DNA of 32,000 nt from Nitrosococcus oceani ATCC 19707 (GTDB taxonomy: Bacteria > Pseudomonadota > Gammaproteobacteria > Nitrosococcales > Nitrosococcaceae), in assembly GCF_000012805.1 (NCBI RefSeq), contig NC_007484.1, forward strand, positions 1,830,001 to 1,862,000. Direction: 5' to 3'. Each line of letters starts with the position of its first letter. Position 1 is the stretch's first letter. A program made the translations under genes and the position numbers. The notes beneath the pieces are model-generated. The model saw only the letters and a program-made list of their open reading frames with translations, was not told the origin of the DNA and made no database searches. This document shows, piece by piece, positions 2,784-10,580 of the stretch.

Positions 2784-3173
2784 TTAGGGAAGCCGCTGTT
2801 GAGCAACGATTTTATAGTTGTCCATATTTCTAACCAAAATTTCCCCATAGTAGTACTCTAACCGATAATTTTCACCGGCTACGGCAGTAAAAGCGATCGT
2901 GGTTTTTTGGGTGGGGTGATCGCCCGGATCTCGGTAGCGGTATCCCACCGTAAAACGATGGGAGCCCGGGGGGACGGCTACTTTATTTTGCCAGAATTTT
3001 AAGCGTTTGCCATCAACGGCAATGATAAAAACGTTACTGAATACCACATTTCGGAAGTCTAGGCTTCCAGCTACATAAGCGAGCTGTTCAGTGGGCTTAG
3101 GAGATACTTGGTAACTACAGGCAATGATTAGAATGTTGGTGCACACAATAGCGGCAATTGTTCTATGGTTCAA
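2784..3173 (-). CDS. hypothetical lipoprotein
   Basis: 129-aa ORF with a signal peptide ending in the lipobox-like I-I-A-C (NILIIACSYQ). The rest looks beta-rich. It is convergent with trkA, with stops 11 nt apart. No family recognised. Confidence 0.5.
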   Translation of the reverse strand: MNHRTIAAIVCTNILIIACSYQVSPKPTEQLAYVAGSLDFRNVVFSNVFIIAVDGKRLKFWQNKVAVPPGSHRFTVGYRYRDPGDHPTQKTTIAFTAVAGENYRLEYYYGEILVRNMDNYKIVAQQRLP

Positions 3174-3218: not shown

Positions 3219-6200
3219 CTAGGCTGCTTTTTTCATGATCAGTATTTTTAGCAATTTTTCTAGGGTCTCTAAGCGTGCTTGGACCGTAGGAAGTTTTCGG
3301 GTAAAGCGCAGCTTTTCCTGGCCATCGAGTTTATAAACGCTAGGCTGTGTCTGAATTAAATCAATAATGGCCATAGGATCCACTTTAGGTTCCGATTGAA
3401 AGTGAATCCGACCGCCATGGGCACCTGCTTCGATCTTGCGAATACCGATTTCATTTGCTTTTAAGCGGAGTTCGTGGGTAGCAAATAGAGTCTTAGTGGC
3501 TTCTGGCAATAGACCGAAGCGATCAATCATCTCTACCTGAAGTTCTGTCAGTGCTTGGTGATTTTTGGCGGTGGCGATCCGTTTATAGAGCACTAATCGG
3601 GTATGCACATCCGGGAGGTAATCTTCTGGGATCAGGGCGGGAGCATGGAGGTCGACCTCTGAACCTTGTTCCGGTGGTTGCTCTAAATCCAAGGCTTGCC
3701 CGGACTTTAAGCTATTGACTGCCCGTTCTAGCAGATCATGGTAAAGATCAAAGCCGATTTCTTGCATTTGCCCGCTTTGGTCTTTACCCAGTAGTTCACC
3801 CGCCCCCCGGATTTCCATATCATGGCTAGCTAAGGTAAAACCAGCACCTAGTTCTTCCAGGGACTCAATGGCATCTAGGCGTTTGATCGCATCTGCGGTC
3901 ATGACCGAGCGAGGAGGGACAATCAGATAGGCATAGGCTCGGTGGTGAGAGCGTCCCACTCGTCCCCGGAGTTGATATAATTGGGCTAAGCCCAATTTAT
4001 CGGCCCGATGGATAATGATAGTATTGGCGCTAGGAATATCAATCCCAGTTTCAATAATAGTAGTGCAAATCAGGACATTAAAACGTCGGTGATAGAAATT
4101 TAGCATCACCTGTTCTAGCTCCCGCTCCCGCATCTGACCATGGGCAATGCCCACTTTGGCTTCAGGAAAAAGGGTTTGAACTCGCTGGGCCATTTTATTA
4201 ATGCTTTCTACTTCATTATGAAGAAAATAGACTTGTCCCCCTCGCTTGATTTCCCGCAATAATGCTTCCCGGAGAAGATTGTCATTCCATTGCCGCACAA
4301 AAGTTTTAATAGCTAGACGCCGCGCCGGTGGCGTGGCAATGATGGAGAGATCCCTGAGATTGGACAGAGACATATGGAGGGTTCGGGGAATGGGGGTTGC
4401 AGTTAGGGTGAGAATATCCACCTCGGTTCGTAGAGCCTTCATCCGTTCCTTCTGTCGGACTCCAAAGCGGTGTTCTTCATCGATAATTACCAATCCTAGA
4501 TTCTTAAAACGGATATTTTCCTGCAGCAATTTATGGGTGCCAATCACAATATCTGCTCGGCCATCAGCAATACCACTGATCACTGCTTCTTGTTCTTTGC
4601 GGGAACGGAACCGGGATATAACTTCTACCCGCGCTGGCCAATCGGCAAACCGGTCTTTAAAGCTTTGATAATGTTGCTGGGCCAGGAGCGTGGTAGGCAC
4701 CAGTACTGCCACCTGCTTGCCTGCTTGTGAGACAATGAAGGTCGCCCGCATCGCCACTTCAGTTTTACCAAAACCCACATCTCCACAGACGAGGCGATCC
4801 ATGGGTTGATCTGAAGTCAAATCGGCAATCACCGCTTGGATAGCATCCGCTTGGTCCGGGGTTTCCTCAAAGGGGAAGGCGCGAGCAAAGGCGGTATAGT
4901 GAGAATCTGGGGTAGGCAGGGGCAGTTTTTTTCGAGCCGCCCGCTGAGCATAGATAGCTAGCAGTTCGGCGGCTACATCTCGGACTCGTTCCCGGGCCTT
5001 ACGCTTGGCTCGTTCCCAATGGTTGGAACCGAGTTTATGCAGGGGCGCCGCCTCGGGAGTGGCGCCAGTATAGCGGTTAATCAGGTGGAGAGAAGAGACG
5101 GGGACATAGAGCTTATCTCCTCCTGCGTATTCCAACGCCATAAATTCGGTGCGGACTTTCCCAACTTCTAGGGTCTGCAGTCCTAAGTAGCGGCCCACAC
5201 CATGTTCCTCATGGACCACTGGGGCGCCGATGGAGAGTTCTACTAAATCCCGAACTACCGCATCCGCATCACGGGTACGCTCCTTACGACGGCGGTACTG
5301 CATGGCTTGTTGGCCAAATAATTGAGACTCCGCGACCACGGCGGTCCGTGGCTCGCTGAGCAGCAAGCCATGCTGTAGAGGCGCAACGGTAATACCAAGA
5401 CGTTCCTCAGCTTGCAGAAAAGTCTCCCAGTTTTCAAAGAAATGGGGCCGAATTCCACTGTCTTTGAATAAATCTCGCAAAGTTTCCCGGCGTCCTGCGG
5501 TTTCGGCGGCAAATAAGACCCGCCCCGTAAAGCTTTTTATAAATTGGTTGAGAGTTTTCAGCGGCTGGGAAATACGGGCATTGAGCATAAGCGAGGGCGG
5601 CGCCTCAGTAGAAAAATTTTGATAACCGGCTTTTTCCTCTACTTTTGAGGATTGTAGACTGATTCGAGGTAGGTGTTTAAGGGAGGAAAAGACCTCTCCG
5701 GCTTGCAGATAGAGTTTTGGGGGGGGTAGAAGAGGGCGCTCTATATCGTGGCGATATTGCTCGTAGCGAGCATTAATCTCTCTCCAAAAACTCTCAGCAG
5801 TGGTGTTGACTCCTTCCACAGTGACAGCCAGCGTATTGTTAGGGAGATAGTCGAATAGGGTATCAGTGTGGTCGAAAAAAAGCGACAGGTAATATTCTAT
5901 TCCTGGAAAAGGATGTCCTTCGCTTACCTCTCGGTAAATCAAGCTGCGCTGAGGATCACCGTTAAAGGCGCCCCGATAGTTCTTTCGGAATCGGGTAATC
6001 GTTTCTTCTACCAGGGGAAATTCCCGGGCAGGTAGCAGTTGGATCTGTGCTACCGATTGCAGAGAGCGCTGGGTTTCCGGATCGAAGCTGCGGAGACTAT
6101 CCACTTCATTATCAAAGAGATCGATTCGATAAGGCAGCGTGCTGCCCATGGGGAACAGGTCGATGAGGGAACCCCGAATGGCGAATTCGCCGTGCTCCAT

Positions 6201-6695
6201 TACCTGGGAGACACAACGATATCCTCCCTTTTCTAGTTGCTTGCGCCAATTCTCCAGGTGAAGGTGATCGCCAGTTGCCACCAGTAAACTATGGGTTTCT
6301 AGATATTCTTGGGGCGCCAGCCGCTGCATTAAGGTGGAGACTGGAACGATCAATATACCACGCTCTAAGCGAGGTAATTGGTAAAGGGTGGCAAGCCGTT
6401 CGGAGAGGATATCCTGATGGGGAGAAAAAGTGTCATAGGGTAAAGTTTCCCAATCAGGAAAATGGAGGATGGGGCTATCTTCCTGGCCGTTGCGATAAAA
6501 GCGGAGCTCATCTTCCAACCGGTTTGCCGTAATCGTATCTGGTGTTATGACCAAAATAGGGCCCGGATGATAATAGGCGGAGGCCGCTAATACCAGACCA
6601 AAACTGCTTCCGTAAAGTTGACCAAAACGATGATGGTCACCAGCCTGTCGGGGTAAGACTGGTGCTAGAGAGGCGAGATTTAAAGCAGGTGGCAT
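3219..6695 (-). CDS. mfd: transcription-repair coupling factor Mfd
   Basis: 1158 aa. Superfamily-2 helicase motifs LVCGDVGFGKTEVAMRA (Walker A), IIDEEHRFGV (DEEH) and LTLTATPIPRTL, plus the TRCF-type C-terminal domain. Length and architecture match E. coli Mfd. Confidence 0.97.
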   Translation of the reverse strand: MPPALNLASLAPVLPRQAGDHHRFGQLYGSSFGLVLAASAYYHPGPILVITPDTITANRLEDELRFYRNGQEDSPILHFPDWETLPYDTFSPHQDILSERLATLYQLPRLERGILIVPVSTLMQRLAPQEYLETHSLLVATGDHLHLENWRKQLEKGGYRCVSQVMEHGEFAIRGSLIDLFPMGSTLPYRIDLFDNEVDSLRSFDPETQRSLQSVAQIQLLPAREFPLVEETITRFRKNYRGAFNGDPQRSLIYREVSEGHPFPGIEYYLSLFFDHTDTLFDYLPNNTLAVTVEGVNTTAESFWREINARYEQYRHDIERPLLPPPKLYLQAGEVFSSLKHLPRISLQSSKVEEKAGYQNFSTEAPPSLMLNARISQPLKTLNQFIKSFTGRVLFAAETAGRRETLRDLFKDSGIRPHFFENWETFLQAEERLGITVAPLQHGLLLSEPRTAVVAESQLFGQQAMQYRRRKERTRDADAVVRDLVELSIGAPVVHEEHGVGRYLGLQTLEVGKVRTEFMALEYAGGDKLYVPVSSLHLINRYTGATPEAAPLHKLGSNHWERAKRKARERVRDVAAELLAIYAQRAARKKLPLPTPDSHYTAFARAFPFEETPDQADAIQAVIADLTSDQPMDRLVCGDVGFGKTEVAMRATFIVSQAGKQVAVLVPTTLLAQQHYQSFKDRFADWPARVEVISRFRSRKEQEAVISGIADGRADIVIGTHKLLQENIRFKNLGLVIIDEEHRFGVRQKERMKALRTEVDILTLTATPIPRTLHMSLSNLRDLSIIATPPARRLAIKTFVRQWNDNLLREALLREIKRGGQVYFLHNEVESINKMAQRVQTLFPEAKVGIAHGQMRERELEQVMLNFYHRRFNVLICTTIIETGIDIPSANTIIIHRADKLGLAQLYQLRGRVGRSHHRAYAYLIVPPRSVMTADAIKRLDAIESLEELGAGFTLASHDMEIRGAGELLGKDQSGQMQEIGFDLYHDLLERAVNSLKSGQALDLEQPPEQGSEVDLHAPALIPEDYLPDVHTRLVLYKRIATAKNHQALTELQVEMIDRFGLLPEATKTLFATHELRLKANEIGIRKIEAGAHGGRIHFQSEPKVDPMAIIDLIQTQPSVYKLDGQEKLRFTRKLPTVQARLETLEKLLKILIMKKAA

Positions 6696-6839: not shown

Positions 6840-7170
6840 TGGTGCCCGGGGCCGGAATCGAACCGGCACGGGGTTACCCCCAAGGGATTTTCTTACCAGC
6901 TACAGCTTTCGCTGCTGCACTTGTCTAATAAAATACCAAATACATTTGTGGTCTGGACTTTATCTTTACCTTATCACTAATCAAATAATTAATGATTTAG
7001 GTAGGAGCCGTCAAGTCTCTACGCTTTCCTTTAAGGCTTAGCTCGGGATTGCCACCATCCTAAAACTTGCTGAGGTTTCCCCGAATTTGACTCCATTCAC
7101 ACTAGGGGTTTCCCACCTAGGTGCTCAAATTATTTAAGTCCCTTGCGTCTACCTATTTCGCCACCCGGGC
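6840..7170 (-). tRNA. leuZ: tRNA-Leu(UAA), split gene: 5' exon 7170-7136, group I intron 7135-6892, 3' exon 6891-6840 (CCA encoded)
   Basis: Minus-strand 5' exon: GCCCGGGTGGCGAAATAGGTAGACGCAAGGGACTT. 3' exon: AAAATCCCTTGGGGGTAACCCCGTGCCGGTTCGATTCCGGCCCCGGGCACCA. Joined, they give an 87-nt class II tRNA with acceptor GCCCGGG/CCCGGGC, anticodon stem AGGGA/TCCCT, loop CU-UAA-AA, variable arm GGGG-GTAA-CCCC and T arm GCCGG-TTCGATT-CCGGC. The D-arm is identical to that of the uninterrupted tRNA-Leu(CAA) at 10494-10580. Confidence 0.9.
6892..7135 (-). ncRNA. group I intron (subgroup IC3-like, no ORF) inserted between U34 and A35 of tRNA-Leu(UAA)
   Basis: 244 nt. P1 is CUU|AAA-UAA-UUUGAG, with exon U34 in a U.G wobble at the 5' splice site. 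P2 is CUAGGUGG-GAAA-CCCCUAG. Conserved core strings are GUCAAAUUCGGGGAAACC, GGCAAUCCCGAGCUAAGCC and GUAGAGACUUGACGGCUCCUACCUAA. P9 is CAGC-GAAA-GCUG. The terminal G (complement of C6892) directly precedes the 3' exon. These strings closely resemble the Azoarcus tRNA-Ile and Anabaena tRNA-Leu introns as I remember them. Confidence 0.87.
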
Positions 7171-7238
7171 TCTACTACAAAAATTTACACTCTTTAAGCA
7201 CCATATATAAAGAAGAAAAGGAATCGAAATGATCGAAA

Positions 7239-7312
7239 TGGAGGCTGGGGTCGGAATCGAACCGGCGTCCACGGCTTTGCAGGCCGCTGCATAACCACTC
7301 TGCCACCCAGCC
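7239..7312 (-). tRNA. cysT: tRNA-Cys(GCA)
   Basis: The reverse complement is GGCTGGGTGGCAGAGTGGTTATGCAGCGGCCTGCAAAGCCGTGGACGCCGGTTCGATTCCGACCCCAGCCTCCA. It forms a cloverleaf with anticodon loop CT-GCA-AA and an encoded CCA. There is one C-A mismatch in the T stem. Confidence 0.9.
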
Positions 7313-7366
7313 TGAAGCAAGTTAGCTAATATTACTAATATATGAGATAAATTTAATCGTACTATT

Positions 7367-7442
<76 letters not shown>

Positions 7443-7458
7443 CCATAAAGCGATAATT

Positions 7459-7486
7459 ATTGTAACAGCGAACTTTTCTATGTCAA
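7459..7486 (-). promoter_or_regulatory. candidate sigma70 promoter of the tRNA Gly-Cys-Leu operon
   Basis: On the minus strand: TTGACA (7486-7481), a 16-nt spacer, then TACAAT (7464-7459). The -10 ends 16 nt upstream of the tRNA-Gly 5' end at 7442. The -35 starts 2 nt after the pgsA stop codon. Confidence 0.5.
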
Positions 7487-7487
7487 G

Positions 7488-8063
7488 TTAAGCTTGATCT
7501 TCTATCCGCCCCATTAATGCCGGCCAAGCAGCATTGAGATAAACAATCATTGATCCTAGCGTTAAGGCAACCGCAATATAGAGAAGAATTAAACCGATAT
7601 CCCATACCGGAATAGGGCCGATAGGATTCTGATAAAGTAATAAAAAAACAGCAATCATCTGAAAAGTAGTCTTAAATTTTCCTAGCATAGAAACAGCAAC
7701 ACTAGCCCGCAGCCCTATCTCCGCCATCCATTCCCGCAACGCCGATATCGTAAGCTCCCGACCAACAATAACCGCTACTGAAAGAGCCATTGGCACAGAA
7801 GGGTGACTTTGCAAGAGTAATATCAAGGCGATGACGACCATTAGCTTATCGGCAACTGGATCTAAAAAGGCCCCGAACGGTGAAGTTTGCTGCCAACGTC
7901 TTGCTAAATAGCCGTCTAACCAATCAGTAACAGCGGCTATACCAAATAATATTGCGCAAATTTCACGGGCATTGGGTATAGGAAGGTAAAACACTGTCAC
8001 CAAAATGGGGATAGCTACAATACGCAAAATTGTCATTACGTTGGGGATCGTATAGATGGGCAT
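7488..8063 (-). CDS. pgsA: CDP-diacylglycerol--glycerol-3-phosphate 3-phosphatidyltransferase
   Basis: CDP-alcohol phosphatidyltransferase motif DWLDGYLARRWQQTSPFGAFLDPVADK. ATG 8063 (MPIYTIPNVMTILR...) gives 191 aa and aligns with the E. coli PgsA N-terminus. The track's longer ORF (start 8129, +22 aa) is the alternative. Confidence 0.9.
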   Translation of the reverse strand: MPIYTIPNVMTILRIVAIPILVTVFYLPIPNAREICAILFGIAAVTDWLDGYLARRWQQTSPFGAFLDPVADKLMVVIALILLLQSHPSVPMALSVAVIVGRELTISALREWMAEIGLRASVAVSMLGKFKTTFQMIAVFLLLYQNPIGPIPVWDIGLILLYIAVALTLGSMIVYLNAAWPALMGRIEDQA

Positions 8064-8147
8064 AAATTTGGCCCTTTCCCGCTTAAAAAACCACGGAATC
8101 CTTACCTTACCACAACCGCTATTCTCCATTAGACTTATTTTTAACTA

Positions 8148-9947
8148 TCATCTATGAAAAACGTCATAAATACGCTGAGCTAATTCCAAGCTAATTCCCT
8201 CTATTTGAGCTAGATCTTCAACTCCTGCCCGTGTTATCTCCTGCAATCCACCTAGTTGAATCAATAGCTTCCGACGACGTTTGGGACCTAATCCAGATAT
8301 TCCCTCTAAAAGGGAAAGCTTACCCCCCTTAGCACGGCGTTTACGATGGCTAACAATAGCAAAACGGTGAGCTTCGTCACGGATATGTTGCAATATATGT
8401 AAAGCTGGAGAATCAGATGTTACCATTACCGGATTCTCATATCCCGCCAAAAATAAGGTTTCATTCCCTGCCTTACGTTCAGGCCCTTTCGCTATACCCA
8501 ACACGGTGATTTCTGTAATGCCTATTTCTTTAAGAACTCTAAGCGACTGATTTATCTGACCTTTACCACCATCAATCACGAGCAAATCTGGAAATACTCC
8601 CTCTTTTTTTTTAAAACGCCGCATTAACGCTTGACGTAAGGCTCCATAATCATCCCCTGGAATGATCCCTGTGATATTAAAACGACGGTAATCAGCCTTA
8701 CGGGGACCCTCTCTATCAAATACTACGCAGGAAGCCACTGTAGCCGTTCCTTGAATATGACTAACATCAAAGCACTCAATCCGTTGTGGGAAGTTTGCTA
8801 AGCTTAGTAATTGCTGTAAGCTTTTAAATCGTGCGGTAATGTTCGATTTCTCTGCGAGATGTTGATTTAAATTAATCTTAGCATTGGCTAAAGCCATTTT
8901 TATCCACTGCACCTTGGGACCACGAACTGGCTTTATCAAAGCAATCTTTCTTCCCGCCTGCTTGCTTAGTACTTCAGTTAACAAACCCATATCTTTAGGC
9001 TGGTGGCTTAATATAAGGATGGGCGGAGTCTCTCGATTCAAATAATATTGTGCTATAAAGGTAGAAAGTAACTCTTCTGGTGTTAGATTTCCTTCAAGCT
9101 TAGGTAAGAAAGTCTTATTTCCTAAATTATGCCCACCACGAATAAAAAAAACCTCCACACAAGCCATTTTCTCCGTAAGAGCGACCCCAAGCACATCAAT
9201 GTCTTTTTTTTCACCGCTTATATACTGACGTGCCTGTATTTGGCGTAAGCTAGCAATTCGATCCCGGTAATAGGCTGCTTGTTCAAAAGCAAGTTGCCCG
9301 GAAGCTTCTTCCATACGTATTACCAACTCATTGATAACCTGTTGATCCCGCCCTTTTAAAAACATCACTACGTGTTGAATATCTTGACTATAATCTTTTT
9401 TACTGATTAAGCCCACGCAAGGAGCAGTGCAGCGTTTGATCTGATATTGTAGACAGGGACGAGAACGATTACGGTAAAAGTTATCTTCACACTGGCGTAC
9501 GGGAAAAACCCTCTGAAGTAGTTTCAGCGTTTGCCATACCGATCTAATATTTGGATAAGGGCCGAAATATTGGCCAGAAACTTGTTTCACCCCCCGATGA
9601 AATCCTAAACGGGGAAAATCGTCAGCAGAGAGAAAAATGTAAGGGTAACTCTTATCATCCCTTAATAATACATTATAGCGAGGTTGCAGAGCTTTAATAA
9701 GATTACTTTCTAGAATCAGTGCTTCATTTTCCGTATGAGTCACAGTAATTTTGATATCGCAAATTTGCTTTACTAGAACATGAATTTTAGGTGCTAATTT
9801 GGAATTTCTAAAATAACTCTTTATCCGCCTTTTTAGGTTTTTTGCCTTACCAACATAGAGCACTTTTCCTTTGGCGTCTAGCATACGATAAACACCTGGG
9901 CAAGGAGTTAAATTCCTCAGAAAATCATCAATATCGAAATTTGCCAT
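8148..9947 (-). CDS. uvrC: excinuclease ABC subunit C
   Basis: 599 aa. It has an N-terminal GIY-YIG module (GVYRMLDAKGKVLYVGKAKNLKRRIKSYF), a UVR domain, an endonuclease V-like domain and a C-terminal (HhH)2. It sits upstream of pgsA as in E. coli. Confidence 0.97.
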   Translation of the reverse strand: MANFDIDDFLRNLTPCPGVYRMLDAKGKVLYVGKAKNLKRRIKSYFRNSKLAPKIHVLVKQICDIKITVTHTENEALILESNLIKALQPRYNVLLRDDKSYPYIFLSADDFPRLGFHRGVKQVSGQYFGPYPNIRSVWQTLKLLQRVFPVRQCEDNFYRNRSRPCLQYQIKRCTAPCVGLISKKDYSQDIQHVVMFLKGRDQQVINELVIRMEEASGQLAFEQAAYYRDRIASLRQIQARQYISGEKKDIDVLGVALTEKMACVEVFFIRGGHNLGNKTFLPKLEGNLTPEELLSTFIAQYYLNRETPPILILSHQPKDMGLLTEVLSKQAGRKIALIKPVRGPKVQWIKMALANAKINLNQHLAEKSNITARFKSLQQLLSLANFPQRIECFDVSHIQGTATVASCVVFDREGPRKADYRRFNITGIIPGDDYGALRQALMRRFKKKEGVFPDLLVIDGGKGQINQSLRVLKEIGITEITVLGIAKGPERKAGNETLFLAGYENPVMVTSDSPALHILQHIRDEAHRFAIVSHRKRRAKGGKLSLLEGISGLGPKRRRKLLIQLGGLQEITRAGVEDLAQIEGISLELAQRIYDVFHR

Positions 9948-9989: not shown

Positions 9990-10454
9990 ATGAAGTTTTC
10001 ATGGTTTAAGATCTTTTTAACTTTTACTGGGCTGTTGATGTTTATGAATTTTTTAAATGTACAGGCCGACGTAAGTTCCTTAAATGTAAATGTAAAGACC
10101 AAAGATTGCTCAGTAGCTCAATTAGCTGGAAGATGGGTTCTCTCAGAAAGTGGAACACATGTAGCTTTCGGAGCGGTACCTTTTAGCCAAATAGGTTGGT
10201 TTTTACTAAAAAAAGATGGAACAGGTAAAGGAGAGGCATTTCTTAGTGTTAATGGGCAGCCTCTCCCTCCCATCCCTCTAGAGATACACTCTATAAAAAT
10301 TAAACCGAAGACTTGCGTGGGTAAAATGGAGTTTTTTGCAGGAGGAGAACTTCGAACAATTACCTTTATTCTAAATGCTCATTTCCAGGAAATTCAGTAT
10401 ATTAGCACTACAGGAGATATTACTACACTAGGGAATGCTAGAAGAAATAAATAG
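9990..10454 (+). CDS. hypothetical secreted protein
   Basis: 154 aa with a clear Sec signal peptide (MKFSWFKIFLTFTGLLMFMNFLNVQA|DV). The mature part is beta-rich. It looks visibly more AT-rich than its neighbours by eye. No family recognised. Confidence 0.55.
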   Translation: MKFSWFKIFLTFTGLLMFMNFLNVQADVSSLNVNVKTKDCSVAQLAGRWVLSESGTHVAFGAVPFSQIGWFLLKKDGTGKGEAFLSVNGQPLPPIPLEIHSIKIKPKTCVGKMEFFAGGELRTITFILNAHFQEIQYISTTGDITTLGNARRNK

Positions 10455-10493: not shown

Positions 10494-10580
10494 GGTGCCG
10501 AGGGCGAGACTCGAACTCGCACGGTGTTACCACCACCAGATTTTGAGTCTAGCGCGTCTACCTATTTCGCCACCTCGGCA
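10494..10580 (-). tRNA. tRNA-Leu(CAA)
   Basis: The reverse complement is GCCGAGGTGGCGAAATAGGTAGACGCGCTAGACTCAAAATCTGGTGGTGGTAACACCGTGCGAGTTCGAGTCTCGCCCTCGGCACCA. It is a class II tRNA with a long variable arm, anticodon loop CT-CAA-AA and an encoded CCA. Confidence 0.95.

What the first reader, a model, noticed from the sequence alone, without database searches (positions are those of the whole stretch)
6840..7170. Group I (IC3-like) intron splitting the anticodon loop of tRNA-Leu(UAA)
Read on the minus strand, 7170-7136 and 6891-6840 are the two halves of a well-formed 87-nt tRNA-Leu with anticodon UAA. All four stems pair, and the D-arm is identical to that of the intact tRNA-Leu(CAA) at 10494-10580. 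The halves are separated by 244 nt inserted exactly between U34 and A35.

The insert has group I hallmarks. P1 (CUU|AAA-UAA-UUUGAG) puts the last exon U in a U.G wobble. P2 and P9 are both capped by GAAA tetraloops. The core strings GUCAAAUUCGGGGAAACC, GGCAAUCCCGAGCUAAGCC and GUAGAGACUUGACGGCUCCUACCUAA are present. There is a compensatory P3 pairing (UUCGGG/CCCGAG) where I remember Anabaena having CUCAGG/CCUGAG. A terminal G sits immediately before the 3' exon.

The insertion site and core match the ancient cyanobacterial/plastid tRNA-Leu(UAA) intron. The proteobacterial tRNA introns I know of (Azoarcus tRNA-Ile, Agrobacterium tRNA-Arg) sit in other tRNAs. A tRNA-Leu(UAA) intron in a gammaproteobacterial-type gene neighbourhood therefore bears on the debate over vertical versus horizontal spread. 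It may also be a compact natural ribozyme. The supplied ORF track covers this locus only with a spurious 97-aa ORF.
Basis: partly seen in the sequence, partly recalled or inferred. Interest (0 to 1): 0.75.

Follow-up and report, generated by a model that had tools for sequence, protein, structure and literature searches.

The report
Self-splicing intron inside a leucine tRNA
The gene for a leucine tRNA of the marine nitrifying bacterium Nitrosococcus oceani is split in its anticodon by a 244-base group I intron, a real and well-conserved example of a known kind of element that turns out to be far more widespread among bacteria than reviews say.

Summary
On the minus strand, 7170-7136 and 6891-6840 are the two halves of an 87-nt tRNA-Leu(UAA). 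A 244-nt insert (7135-6892) separates them exactly between U34 and A35. ARAGORN finds the split gene, and Rfam RF00028 scores the insert at 78.5 bits (E = 1.5e-18).

The window is Nitrosococcus oceani. The locus is the E. coli-like uvrC-pgsA-tRNAGly-tRNACys-tRNALeu(UAA) cluster.

The same intron sits at the same site in N. watsonii, N. wardiae, a metagenomic relative and Ca. Nitrosacidococcus tergens. In 13 related introns, 40 of 66 base pairs show compensatory changes, covering P2, P3, P4, P5, P6, P8 and P9.

A public assembly of Nitrosacidococcus reads is 100% identical to the genome over 5.3 kb, except that the intron is precisely missing. This is probably spliced RNA.

The intron is not new in kind. 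Gammaproteobacterial tRNA-Leu(UAA) introns were already reported in Beggiatoaceae. A capped genome scan returned 43 more at the same site, spread over at least eight non-cyanobacterial lineages.

The intron does not group with cyanobacterial-type tRNA-Leu introns.

Verdict: a new member of a known kind, of moderate interest.

The parts
7459..7486 (-). Promoter-like site (TTGACA, 16 nt, TG-TACAAT) just downstream of the pgsA stop and upstream of tRNA-Gly. It is the likely start of a tRNA-Gly/tRNA-Cys/tRNA-Leu precursor.
   Evidence: 11 of 12 consensus matches with an extended -10 TG. This is a consensus match only, and co-transcription is inferred.
7367..7442 (-). tRNA-Gly(GCC), the first gene of the tRNA cluster
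   Evidence: RF00005, 69.9 bits
7239..7312 (-). tRNA-Cys(GCA), the second gene of the cluster
   Evidence: RF00005, 60.4 bits
7136..7170 (-). 5' exon of tRNA-Leu(UAA): acceptor 5' strand, D-arm, 5' strand of the anticodon stem, and the loop up to U34
   Evidence: ARAGORN with introns allowed; sequence
6892..7135 (-). Group I intron, 244 nt, with no ORF
   Evidence: RF00028, 78.5 bits, E = 1.5e-18; boundaries; stop codons in all sense frames
6840..6891 (-). 3' exon of tRNA-Leu(UAA): A35 A36, 3' strand of the anticodon stem, long variable arm, T-arm, acceptor 3' strand and encoded CCA
7124..7138 (-). P1: exon CUU plus intron AA (7138-7134) paired with the internal guide UUGAG (7128-7124). The 5' splice-site U 7136 pairs with G 7126 as a U.G wobble.
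   Evidence: The U.G pair is present in 13 of 13 aligned introns.
7098..7123 (-). P2 hairpin capped by an invariant GAAA tetraloop (7112-7109)
   Evidence: 8 of 10 pairs show changes on both sides; the GAAA loop is invariant.
7089..7094 (-). P3 5' strand, GGAGUC
   Evidence: pairs with 7009-7004; 4 of 6 pairs are compensatory; 100% of cells are paired.
7028..7085 (-). P4-P5-P6 domain. P4 is UUCGGGG (7085-7079) with UCCCGAG (7048-7042). P5 is CC (7075-7074) with GG (7053-7052) plus a variable hairpin. P6 is a minimal hairpin, CCU-UAA-AGG within 7036-7028.
   Evidence: All 4 P6 pairs are compensatory, one P4 pair is, and one of the two P5 pairs is.
7015..7019 (-). P7 5' strand, G(A)GAC, with a bulged A; expected guanosine-binding helix
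   Evidence: It pairs with GUCC at 6958-6955. It is invariant in all sequences, so covariation says nothing here. The assignment follows the Rfam consensus and general knowledge of group I introns.
7004..7009 (-). P3 3' strand, GGCUCC. Together with P7 it forms the core pseudoknot.
6967..7003 (-). P8 hairpin, carrying a CCUAAA...UAAGG motif that resembles the 11-nt GAAA-tetraloop receptor
   Evidence: 7 of 8 P8 pairs are compensatory. Canonical CCUAAG and UAUGG strands both occur in L120 and L119, and single canonical strands occur in several other relatives. The receptor role is inferred from knowledge of the Azoarcus intron.
6955..6966 (-). J8/7 (AAGAUAAA) and the P7 3' strand (GUCC)
   Evidence: The segment is nearly invariant.
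6895..6952 (-). P9 three-way domain. P9.0 is ACC (6952-6950) with GGU (6897-6895). P9a is a hairpin at 6944-6916. P9b is a hairpin at 6915-6902 with a GAAA loop at 6910-6907. Most of this domain lies outside the Rfam match.
   Evidence: all 7 P9a pairs and 4 of 5 P9b pairs are compensatory, including changes among Nitrosococcus species.
6892..6892 (-). Terminal guanosine (omega-G) immediately before the 3' exon
   Evidence: A G occupies this position in all the tRNA-Leu(UAA) introns listed and in the four Nitrosococcaceae relatives aligned.

Best explanation
This is a functional, ORF-less group I intron of the small tRNA-intron type (IC3-like). It interrupts the only tRNA-Leu(UAA) gene seen in the window, the leuZ equivalent of the pgsA-glyW-cysT-leuZ cluster of Nitrosococcus oceani.

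Proposed mechanism:
1. The cluster is transcribed, probably from the promoter-like site at 7486-7459.
2. The intron folds into the P1-P9 core. P1 presents the last exon U (7136) in a U.G wobble with the internal guide.
3. A free guanosine bound in P7 attacks the 5' splice site.
4. The terminal G (6892) then replaces it in the P7 site.
5. The freed 3'-OH of U34 attacks the 3' splice site. This joins U34 to A35 and creates the UAA anticodon.
6. The exon-exon anticodon stem takes the place of a P10 helix.
7. RNase P and 3' trimming then finish the tRNA.

Shown here: the gene structure, the fold and its covariation, conservation of the intron at the same site across Nitrosococcaceae, and a precisely intron-less natural sequence in the sister genus.

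Inferred: catalysis itself, independence from protein cofactors, and co-transcription of the three tRNAs.

Within Nitrosococcaceae the intron has been inherited vertically.
For: Identity and boundaries:
- RF00028 scores 78.5 bits, E = 1.5e-18.
- ARAGORN finds the split tRNA and folds the spliced product.
- PgsA is 100% identical to the N. oceani protein.

Conservation:
- The orthologous locus carries the intron at the same site in N. watsonii (235 nt), N. wardiae (247 nt), a JGI relative (245 nt) and Ca. Nitrosacidococcus tergens (240 nt).
- All of these are RF00028 hits at 67-73 bits.

Structure:
- RNAalifold on a plain MAFFT alignment recovers P1-P6, P8 and P9, with 40 of 66 pairs compensatory.
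- With P7 added, 97.9% of cells are paired, against 33-44% when partners are slid by 1-3 columns. 40 pairs have changes on both sides, against 14-19. None of 500 shuffles reach the observed values.

Need for the tRNA:
- UUA is the most used leucine codon, 28.6% of Leu codons in ten ORFs of the window.
- The intron splits the anticodon, so the gene is useless without splicing.

Precise excision in nature:
- The Logan contig ERR15564483_10 is 100% identical to the Nitrosacidococcus genome over 5.3 kb, except that the 240-nt intron is exactly absent.
- Contigs in 16 further samples stop 2 nt past exon 1. That is the point where the spliced and unspliced paths diverge.
- The only study of this organism found in the library with many read sets produced 36 metatranscriptomes and 4 metagenomes (PMC13170337).

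Vertical descent:
- The Nitrosococcaceae introns form a clade with 97% bootstrap support, and their divergence roughly tracks PgsA identity.
Against: - No splicing experiment and no N. oceani transcript data were available. All N. oceani public contigs retrieved carry the intron or are uninformative.
- The link between the ERR155644xx runs and the metatranscriptome project could not be verified. The intron-less contig could therefore be a DNA variant rather than spliced RNA.
- P7 and the junction segments are invariant, so covariation is silent on them. Part of P7 was also fixed by my own search pattern.
- P6 in N. oceani is reduced to 3 bp with a triloop. Some relatives of this intron class, the plastid trnL introns (from memory), need proteins to splice.
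- Whether a second, intron-less tRNA-Leu(UAA) gene exists elsewhere in the genome could not be checked.
Confidence: 0.88

Rival explanations
1. The intron has the group I fold and is removed in vivo, but it is not autonomously self-splicing. It depends on a host protein, such as an RNA chaperone or an aminoacyl-tRNA synthetase acting as a cofactor, as plastid trnL introns and some mitochondrial group I introns do.
For: P6 is minimal in N. oceani, at 3 bp plus a triloop. P5 has only two firmly supported pairs. The review PMC3984707 stresses that many group I introns rely on host factors. Nothing tested here bears on catalysis.
Against: All core helices and both GAAA tetraloops are intact and conserved. 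P8 carries a receptor-like motif. From memory, small bacterial tRNA introns of this type (Azoarcus, Anabaena, Agrobacterium) self-splice in vitro.
Confidence: 0.2
2. The intron is a recent horizontally acquired mobile element, for example from cyanobacteria, rather than a long-resident vertically inherited one.
For: In the NJ tree an Acidobacteriota intron (Pyrinomonadaceae, L013, 75% identical over the whole intron) nests among the gammaproteobacterial ones. Halioglobus (gamma) sits with alpha and Acidobacteriota introns. Acidobacteriota are scattered over several clades. Support for a wider gamma clade is only 50%. Some transfer between phyla has therefore happened.
Against: There is no homing-endonuclease ORF. 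The intron is at the same site and in the same syntenic locus in five Nitrosococcaceae lineages whose PgsA identity goes down to 74%. These form a 97% clade. The next closest sequence, gammaproteobacterium L079, shares the Gly-Cys-Leu gene order. Cyanobacterial-type introns form a separate clade with 100% support and are only 58-62% identical.
Confidence: 0.1
3. The gene is a decaying pseudogene. The insert is an inactive relic, and UUA is read by another tRNA gene elsewhere in the genome.
For: A second gene could not be excluded because only 32 kb were available. ARAGORN in default mode does not call the gene.
Against: Compensatory changes occur even among Nitrosococcus species, in P2, P8 and P9a. 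97.9% of cells are paired. The exons are intact with perfect stems. UUA is the commonest Leu codon. A precisely intron-less form exists in the sister genus.
Confidence: 0.02

Closest known systems
[quoted passage not shown] Anabaena PCC 7120; Xu et al. 1990 and Kuhsel et al. 1990, listed as references in PMC3984707)
   Same: The host tRNA is the same and the insertion point is identical, between U34 and A35. Both are ORF-less and 200-300 nt long. [quoted passage not shown] Both share the generic core strings (GGGAAACC, GCAAUCC.GAGC.AAGCC, AGAGACU.GACGG). From my recollection of the Anabaena sequence, both have a P9 domain with a GAAA-capped hairpin.
   Different: Identity to seven cyanobacterial-type introns recovered here is only 58-62% over 201 alignable columns. 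That is no higher than to introns in other tRNAs. The cyanobacterial-type sequences form their own clade with 100% bootstrap support, away from the Nitrosococcus intron. The exons are gammaproteobacterial.
Gammaproteobacterial tRNA-Leu(UAA) introns already reported: Beggiatoaceae ('Ca. Maribeggiatoa' BOGUAY and Ca. Thiomargarita nelsonii Bud S10; PMC4853749, citing MacGregor et al. 2013), and from memory a deep-subsurface gammaproteobacterium (Vepritskiy et al. 2002, J Bacteriol 184:1481; the paper was not available)
   Same: The bacterial class is the same, the interrupted tRNA is the same, and the element is a putative group I intron.
   Different: Those sequences were not retrievable here, so similarity is untested. 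In Beggiatoaceae the introns are part of a genome rich in mobile elements. In Nitrosococcaceae it is a single element conserved across the whole family in a housekeeping tRNA cluster.
Azoarcus sp. BH72 tRNA-Ile(CAU) intron, the IC3 model ribozyme with crystal structures (PMC3984707)
   Same: It is small and ORF-less, sits in an anticodon loop, and has a GAAA loop on P2 and on P9. It has a P8 with a tetraloop-receptor motif. J3/4-P4 (AAAUUCGG.GAAACC) and the P7-P3 strand (GUAGAGACU.GACGGC.CC.ACCUAA) are nearly identical to my recollection of the Azoarcus sequence.
   Different: The host tRNA and the insertion site differ (after position 37, ARAGORN 38, against 34/35 here). The betaproteobacterial tRNA(CAU) introns recovered here are 58-67% identical and form a separate clade with 99.5% support. 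The Nitrosococcus intron has a larger three-way P9 domain.
Agrobacterium and other alphaproteobacterial tRNA-Arg(CCU) introns (Reinhold-Hurek and Shub 1992, cited in PMC4033280)
   Same: It has the same small group I architecture inside a bacterial anticodon loop.
   Different: The tRNA and the site differ. The four tRNA-Arg(CCU) introns recovered here are 58-62% identical to the window intron and cluster with alpha- and betaproteobacterial tRNA-Leu introns, not with the Nitrosococcus group.

Membership tests
Group I intron (Rfam RF00028) | Covariance-model score above the curated gathering threshold | tested here: met
   78.5 bits against a threshold of 50, E = 1.5e-18, full model 1-253. Orthologues score 67-73 bits.
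Group I intron (Rfam RF00028) | P1 formed by the end of the 5' exon and an internal guide sequence, with a U.G wobble at the splice site | tested here: met
   U 7136 pairs with G 7126. The U.G pair is present in 13 of 13 aligned introns.
Group I intron (Rfam RF00028) | Terminal guanosine at the 3' end of the intron | tested here: met
   G at 6892. A G ends every tRNA-Leu(UAA) intron listed and the four Nitrosococcaceae relatives.
Group I intron (Rfam RF00028) | Conserved core of P3-P8 and P4-P6 domains, supported by covariation | tested here: met
   Compensatory pairs: P3 4 of 6, P4 1 of 7, P5 1 of 2, P6 4 of 4, P8 7 of 8. Overall 97.9% of cells are paired, against 33-44% in the slid controls.
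Group I intron (Rfam RF00028) | P7 guanosine-binding helix forming a pseudoknot with P3 | tested here: inconclusive
   G(A)GAC/GUCC can pair in 13 of 13 sequences, but the helix never varies. Part of the 5' strand was fixed by my search pattern.
Group I intron (Rfam RF00028) | Guanosine- and Mg-dependent self-splicing by two transesterifications | not testable with these tools
   This needs in-vitro transcription and splicing assays. The only indirect support is the precisely intron-less Nitrosacidococcus contig.
IC3 subgroup (bacterial tRNA introns) | Subgroup-specific core and peripheral pattern: small size, no P5abc, no P2.1 or P7.1 extensions, located in a tRNA anticodon loop | tested here: inconclusive
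   The size (244 nt), the helix inventory and the host site fit. Identity to tRNA(CAU) and tRNA-Arg introns is 58-67%. No subgroup-specific model was available, so the label rests on resemblance and on my recollection of the Azoarcus and Anabaena sequences.
tRNA-Leu(UAA) intron lineage of cyanobacteria and plastids | Insertion between U34 and A35 of tRNA-Leu(UAA) | tested here: met
   The junction GACTT|...G|AAAATC is the same as in six of the seven cyanobacterial-type sequences; the seventh, L142, shares the exon ends but has a different intron terminus.
tRNA-Leu(UAA) intron lineage of cyanobacteria and plastids | Sequence groups with cyanobacterial or plastid tRNA-Leu introns rather than with introns of other tRNAs | tested here: not met
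   The cyanobacterial-type clade has 100% bootstrap support and excludes the Nitrosococcus intron. Identity is 58-62%, the same as to introns of other tRNAs. The tree is a rough NJ tree on 201 columns, and the two sets were retrieved with different patterns.
Mobile group I intron with homing endonuclease | An intron-encoded endonuclease ORF | tested here: not met
   The intron is 244 nt with stop codons in all three sense frames.

The most novel reading that the evidence does not exclude
The U34/A35 tRNA-Leu(UAA) intron is not a cyanobacterial speciality with occasional escapes. It may be an old, mostly vertically inherited resident of many bacterial lineages.

The lineages seen here are alpha-, beta- and gammaproteobacteria, Acidobacteriota, Eremiobacterota/Vulcanimicrobiota, Bacteroidota, Chloroflexota and Binatia. 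Nitrosococcaceae would be one family in which it has been fixed since before the genera diverged.

If true, this would push the origin of the intron back before the cyanobacterial radiation. Alternatively, it would point to an endonuclease-independent, site-specific route of spread such as reverse splicing.
Probability: 0.2. Interest if true: 0.65.

Novelty: new member of a known kind. Interest (0 to 1): 0.35.

Why it matters
For N. oceani the point is practical. Standard tRNA finders miss this gene, and the ORF track put a spurious 97-aa ORF over it. Yet it is the tRNA for the most used leucine codon, so translation appears to depend on a ribozyme.

[quoted passage not shown] One capped scan here returned 43 non-cyanobacterial tRNA-Leu(UAA) introns at the same site. 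It also returned introns that ARAGORN assigns to tRNA-Arg, Met/Ile, Ser, Phe, Thr and His.

The old debate on vertical versus horizontal spread could now be settled with genome-scale sampling. The Nitrosococcaceae set offers a clean case of vertical descent. It also offers a compact natural ribozyme with informative natural variants.

Tried and rejected
1. Literature. Vepritskiy et al. 2002, Rudi et al. 2002 and the N. oceani genome paper are not held in the library, and no citing paper was found. The 2002 precedent therefore rests on my memory. Searching 'Nitrosococcus' with 'group I intron' gave nothing relevant.

2. Metagenome scan. The pattern GCAGAGACTCGACGG was meant to fetch cyanobacterial references. 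111 of 121 hits were chance matches and only 7 were usable tRNA-Leu introns. Their cyanobacterial or plastid origin is inferred from their exons only.

3. Genome scan. The pattern also excludes the GCAGAGAC-type introns by design.

4. Relatives not reached. N. halophilus PgsA and one N. wardiae PgsA entry were not on record. One relative's contig ended before the tRNAs (L132).

5. Spliced N. oceani product. I looked for it through the spurious 97-aa ORF and through Mfd. All contigs carry the intron or begin inside it.

6. A rejected helix. RNAalifold proposed a small invariant helix at alignment columns 145-148 with 155-158. I rejected it in favour of the P7 pseudoknot.

7. An archaeal hit. 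The pattern match in a Methanomicrobiaceae MAG (L113) had no tRNA around it and was treated as chance.

8. No covariance model was built.
Full report
**Observation**

Read on the minus strand, 7170-7136 (35 nt) and 6891-6840 (52 nt) join into an 87-nt tRNA-Leu with anticodon UAA, a long variable arm and an encoded CCA. They are separated by 244 nt (7135-6892).

ARAGORN in default mode reports only tRNA-Gly(GCC), tRNA-Cys(GCA), tRNA-Leu(CAA) and tRNA-Ser(UGA) in the window. With introns allowed it reports tRNA-Leu(taa) with a 244-nt intron at its position 35/36, which is U34|A35. It folds the in-silico spliced sequence as a regular tRNA-Leu.

Rfam RF00028 (Intron_gpI) matches 7145-6934 at 78.5 bits (gathering score 50, E = 1.5e-18, full model).

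The D-arm is identical to that of tRNA-Leu(CAA), and the intron has no ORF.

**Organism and context**

The flanking genes are:
- mfd, 3219-6695 on the minus strand
- pgsA, 7488-8129 on the minus strand
- uvrC, 8148-9947 on the minus strand
- queA and trmJ on the plus strand

PgsA is 100% identical to the Nitrosococcus oceani protein. The locus is found base for base in N. oceani assemblies.

The order uvrC-pgsA-tRNAGly-tRNACys-tRNALeu(UAA) is, from my own knowledge, the order of E. coli uvrC-pgsA-glyW-cysT-leuZ. This is the housekeeping gene for this isoacceptor, not an extra copy on a mobile element.

A near-consensus promoter-like site (TTGACA, 16 nt, TG-TACAAT, 11 of 12 matches) lies at 7486-7459, directly upstream of tRNA-Gly. 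Co-transcription of the three tRNAs is inferred.

UUA is the most frequent leucine codon in ten ORFs of the window (158 of 552, 28.6%). The cell therefore needs this tRNA in quantity.

**Conservation in relatives**

PgsA homologues led me to the orthologous loci. The Gly-Cys-Leu(UAA) cluster carries an intron at the same position in:
- N. watsonii (235 nt)
- N. wardiae (247 nt)
- a JGI metagenomic relative (245 nt)
- Ca. Nitrosacidococcus tergens (240 nt; PgsA only 74% identical)

All are RF00028 hits at 67-73 bits.

**Structure**

I aligned 13 tRNA-Leu(UAA) introns with MAFFT, without fitting to any structure. They were five Nitrosococcaceae, five other Gammaproteobacteria, and one each from Acidobacteriota, Alphaproteobacteria and Bacteroidota.

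RNAalifold independently recovered the exon-exon anticodon stem, P1, P2, P3, P4, P5, P6, P8 and a three-way P9 domain (P9.0, P9a, P9b). 40 of 66 pairs have compensatory changes.

I then replaced one small invariant helix by the P7 pseudoknot. With that structure:
- 97.9% of cells are standard pairs, against 33-44% when the partners are slid by 1-3 columns.
- 40 pairs have changes on both sides, against 14-19.
- None of 500 shuffles reaches the observed values.

Covariation is visible even among Nitrosococcus species, in P2, P8 and P9a. P7 and the joining segments never vary, so they are uninformative.

Both GAAA tetraloops (L2 and L9b) are invariant. P8 carries a CCUAAA...UAAGG motif. The canonical 11-nt tetraloop-receptor strands CCUAAG and UAUGG occur in relatives, both together in L120 and L119. 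This suggests an L2-P8 contact as in the Azoarcus ribozyme, which is an inference from memory of that structure.

P3 is GGAGUC/GGCUCC.

The Rfam match stops at 6934. The last 42 nt are the 3' part of the P9 domain, which the covariation analysis supports.

**Evidence bearing on splicing**

No N. oceani transcript evidence could be obtained. In the sister genus the evidence is as follows:
- The Logan contig ERR15564483_10 is 100% identical to the Ca. N. tergens genome over 3349 + 1977 nt. The one difference is that the 240-nt intron is missing exactly at the predicted junction, leaving an intact tRNA-Leu(UAA). That tRNA scores 58.9 bits on RF00005.
- It matches the in-silico spliced N. oceani tRNA at 85 of 87 positions.
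- Contigs from ERR15564497 and 15 further samples end 2 nt after exon 1. These two bases, AA, are shared by the intron start and exon 2. That is where an assembly graph would fork if both forms were present in the reads.
- Other runs of the series keep the intron.

A 2026 study of this organism produced 36 metatranscriptomes and 4 metagenomes (PMC13170337). The number of samples and the contig sizes fit. I could not verify that these runs belong to that project. I put the odds at about 3:1 that this is spliced RNA rather than a DNA polymorphism. Either way, it shows that precise removal at the predicted junction occurs in nature.

**Distribution and relationships**

In 90 of the 121 matches in those loci, ARAGORN reports an intron-bearing tRNA around the match.

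43 of them are tRNA-Leu(UAA) with the junction GACTT|...G|AAAATC. The hosts include:
- Alpha-, Beta- and Gammaproteobacteria, including Burkholderia, Paraburkholderia and Steroidobacter
- Acidobacteriota
- Eremiobacterota/Vulcanimicrobiota
- Bacteroidota
- Chloroflexota
- Binatia

The others are assigned to tRNA-Arg(CCU/UCU), tRNA-Met/Ile(CAU), Ser, Phe, Thr and His. Some of those ARAGORN assignments may be wrong.

A metagenome scan for the GCAGAGAC variant gave seven cyanobacterial-type tRNA-Leu introns, judged by their exons only.

I built an NJ tree of 66 introns on 201 columns with 200 bootstraps:

| Grouping | Bootstrap support |
|---|---|
| Nitrosococcaceae introns | 97% |
| N. oceani + N. 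watsonii | 91% |
| Nitrosococcaceae + gammaproteobacterium L079 | 67.5% |
| Wider set of gammaproteobacterial introns | 50% |
| Cyanobacterial-type introns, separate from the above | 100% |

L079 is 79% identical over the whole intron and has the same Gly-Cys-Leu gene order. A Pyrinomonadaceae intron nests close to the gammaproteobacterial set.

The window intron is 58-62% identical to the cyanobacterial-type introns. That is no more than to tRNA(CAU) introns (58-67%) or tRNA-Arg(CCU) introns (58-62%).

My reading is vertical inheritance within Nitrosococcaceae, a loosely gammaproteobacterial lineage with some transfer between phyla, and no special affinity to the cyanobacterial intron beyond the shared site. 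The tree is rough and the sampling is biased by the search patterns.

**Comparison with what is known**

Group I introns in tRNA-Leu(UAA) are classic for cyanobacteria and plastids.

[quoted passage not shown] Maribeggiatoa' BOGUAY and Ca. Thiomargarita nelsonii. From memory, Vepritskiy et al. 2002 described one in a subsurface gammaproteobacterium. That paper was not available.

[quoted passage not shown] I found no paper mentioning the Nitrosococcus intron.

**Verdict**

This is a real, structurally intact group I intron that is almost certainly spliced. It is a new member of a known kind. Its interest lies less in its presence in one gammaproteobacterium than in two other things. One is its fixation across a whole family of nitrifiers. 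The other is the unexpectedly broad distribution of same-site tRNA-Leu introns that the scan revealed in passing.

Noticed in passing
L129/L134 (Logan ERR15564483_10) against L130/L135 (Ca. Nitrosacidococcus tergens LR778175.1); L138 (ERR15564497_35): A public assembly is 100% identical to the reference genome over 5.3 kb, except that the 240-nt tRNA-Leu intron is precisely absent. In 16 other samples the contig ends 2 nt after exon 1, at the point where the spliced and unspliced paths diverge. This is probably a metatranscriptome signature of splicing, but the library type was not verified.
   Followed up: partly
L008-L127 (genome-contig scan): Besides tRNA-Leu(UAA), ARAGORN reports intron-bearing tRNA-Arg(CCU/UCU), tRNA-Met/Ile(CAU), tRNA-Ser (several anticodons), tRNA-Phe, tRNA-Thr and tRNA-His around the same core motif, in many phyla. 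These include a Vibrio, an Akkermansia MAG, and Parcubacteria and Saccharibacteria MAGs. Some anticodon assignments look unreliable (for example Ser(AGA), Phe(AAA), His(AUG)) and need checking with a covariance model.
   Followed up: partly
L025:5657-5671 (+) and 6129-6143 (-): One proteobacterial MAG contig carries the intron core motif twice within 500 nt, on opposite strands. One copy is in tRNA-Leu(UAA). ARAGORN did not assign the other to a tRNA.
   Followed up: no
window 7153-7446 (-): The 97-aa ORF that overlaps tRNA-Gly, tRNA-Cys and exon 1 is spurious. It was nevertheless called as a gene in one public assembly (SRR9437463).
   Followed up: yes
window 7459-7486 (-): A near-consensus extended -10 promoter-like site lies between the pgsA stop and tRNA-Gly. 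No terminator-like site was found between the tRNA-Leu 3' end (6840) and the mfd start (6695).
   Followed up: partly
window 9990-10454 (+) and 2784-3173 (-): ORFs of 154 aa and 129 aa have no NCBIfam match. The 154-aa ORF is conserved next to uvrC in the N. oceani contigs, and N. wardiae has a 152-aa ORF in the same position.
   Followed up: no
L113 (Methanomicrobiaceae MAG): The core 15-mer also occurs in an archaeal MAG, but no tRNA or intron-like context was detected. It was treated as a chance match, since about 4,000 chance matches are expected in the whole collection.
   Followed up: partly
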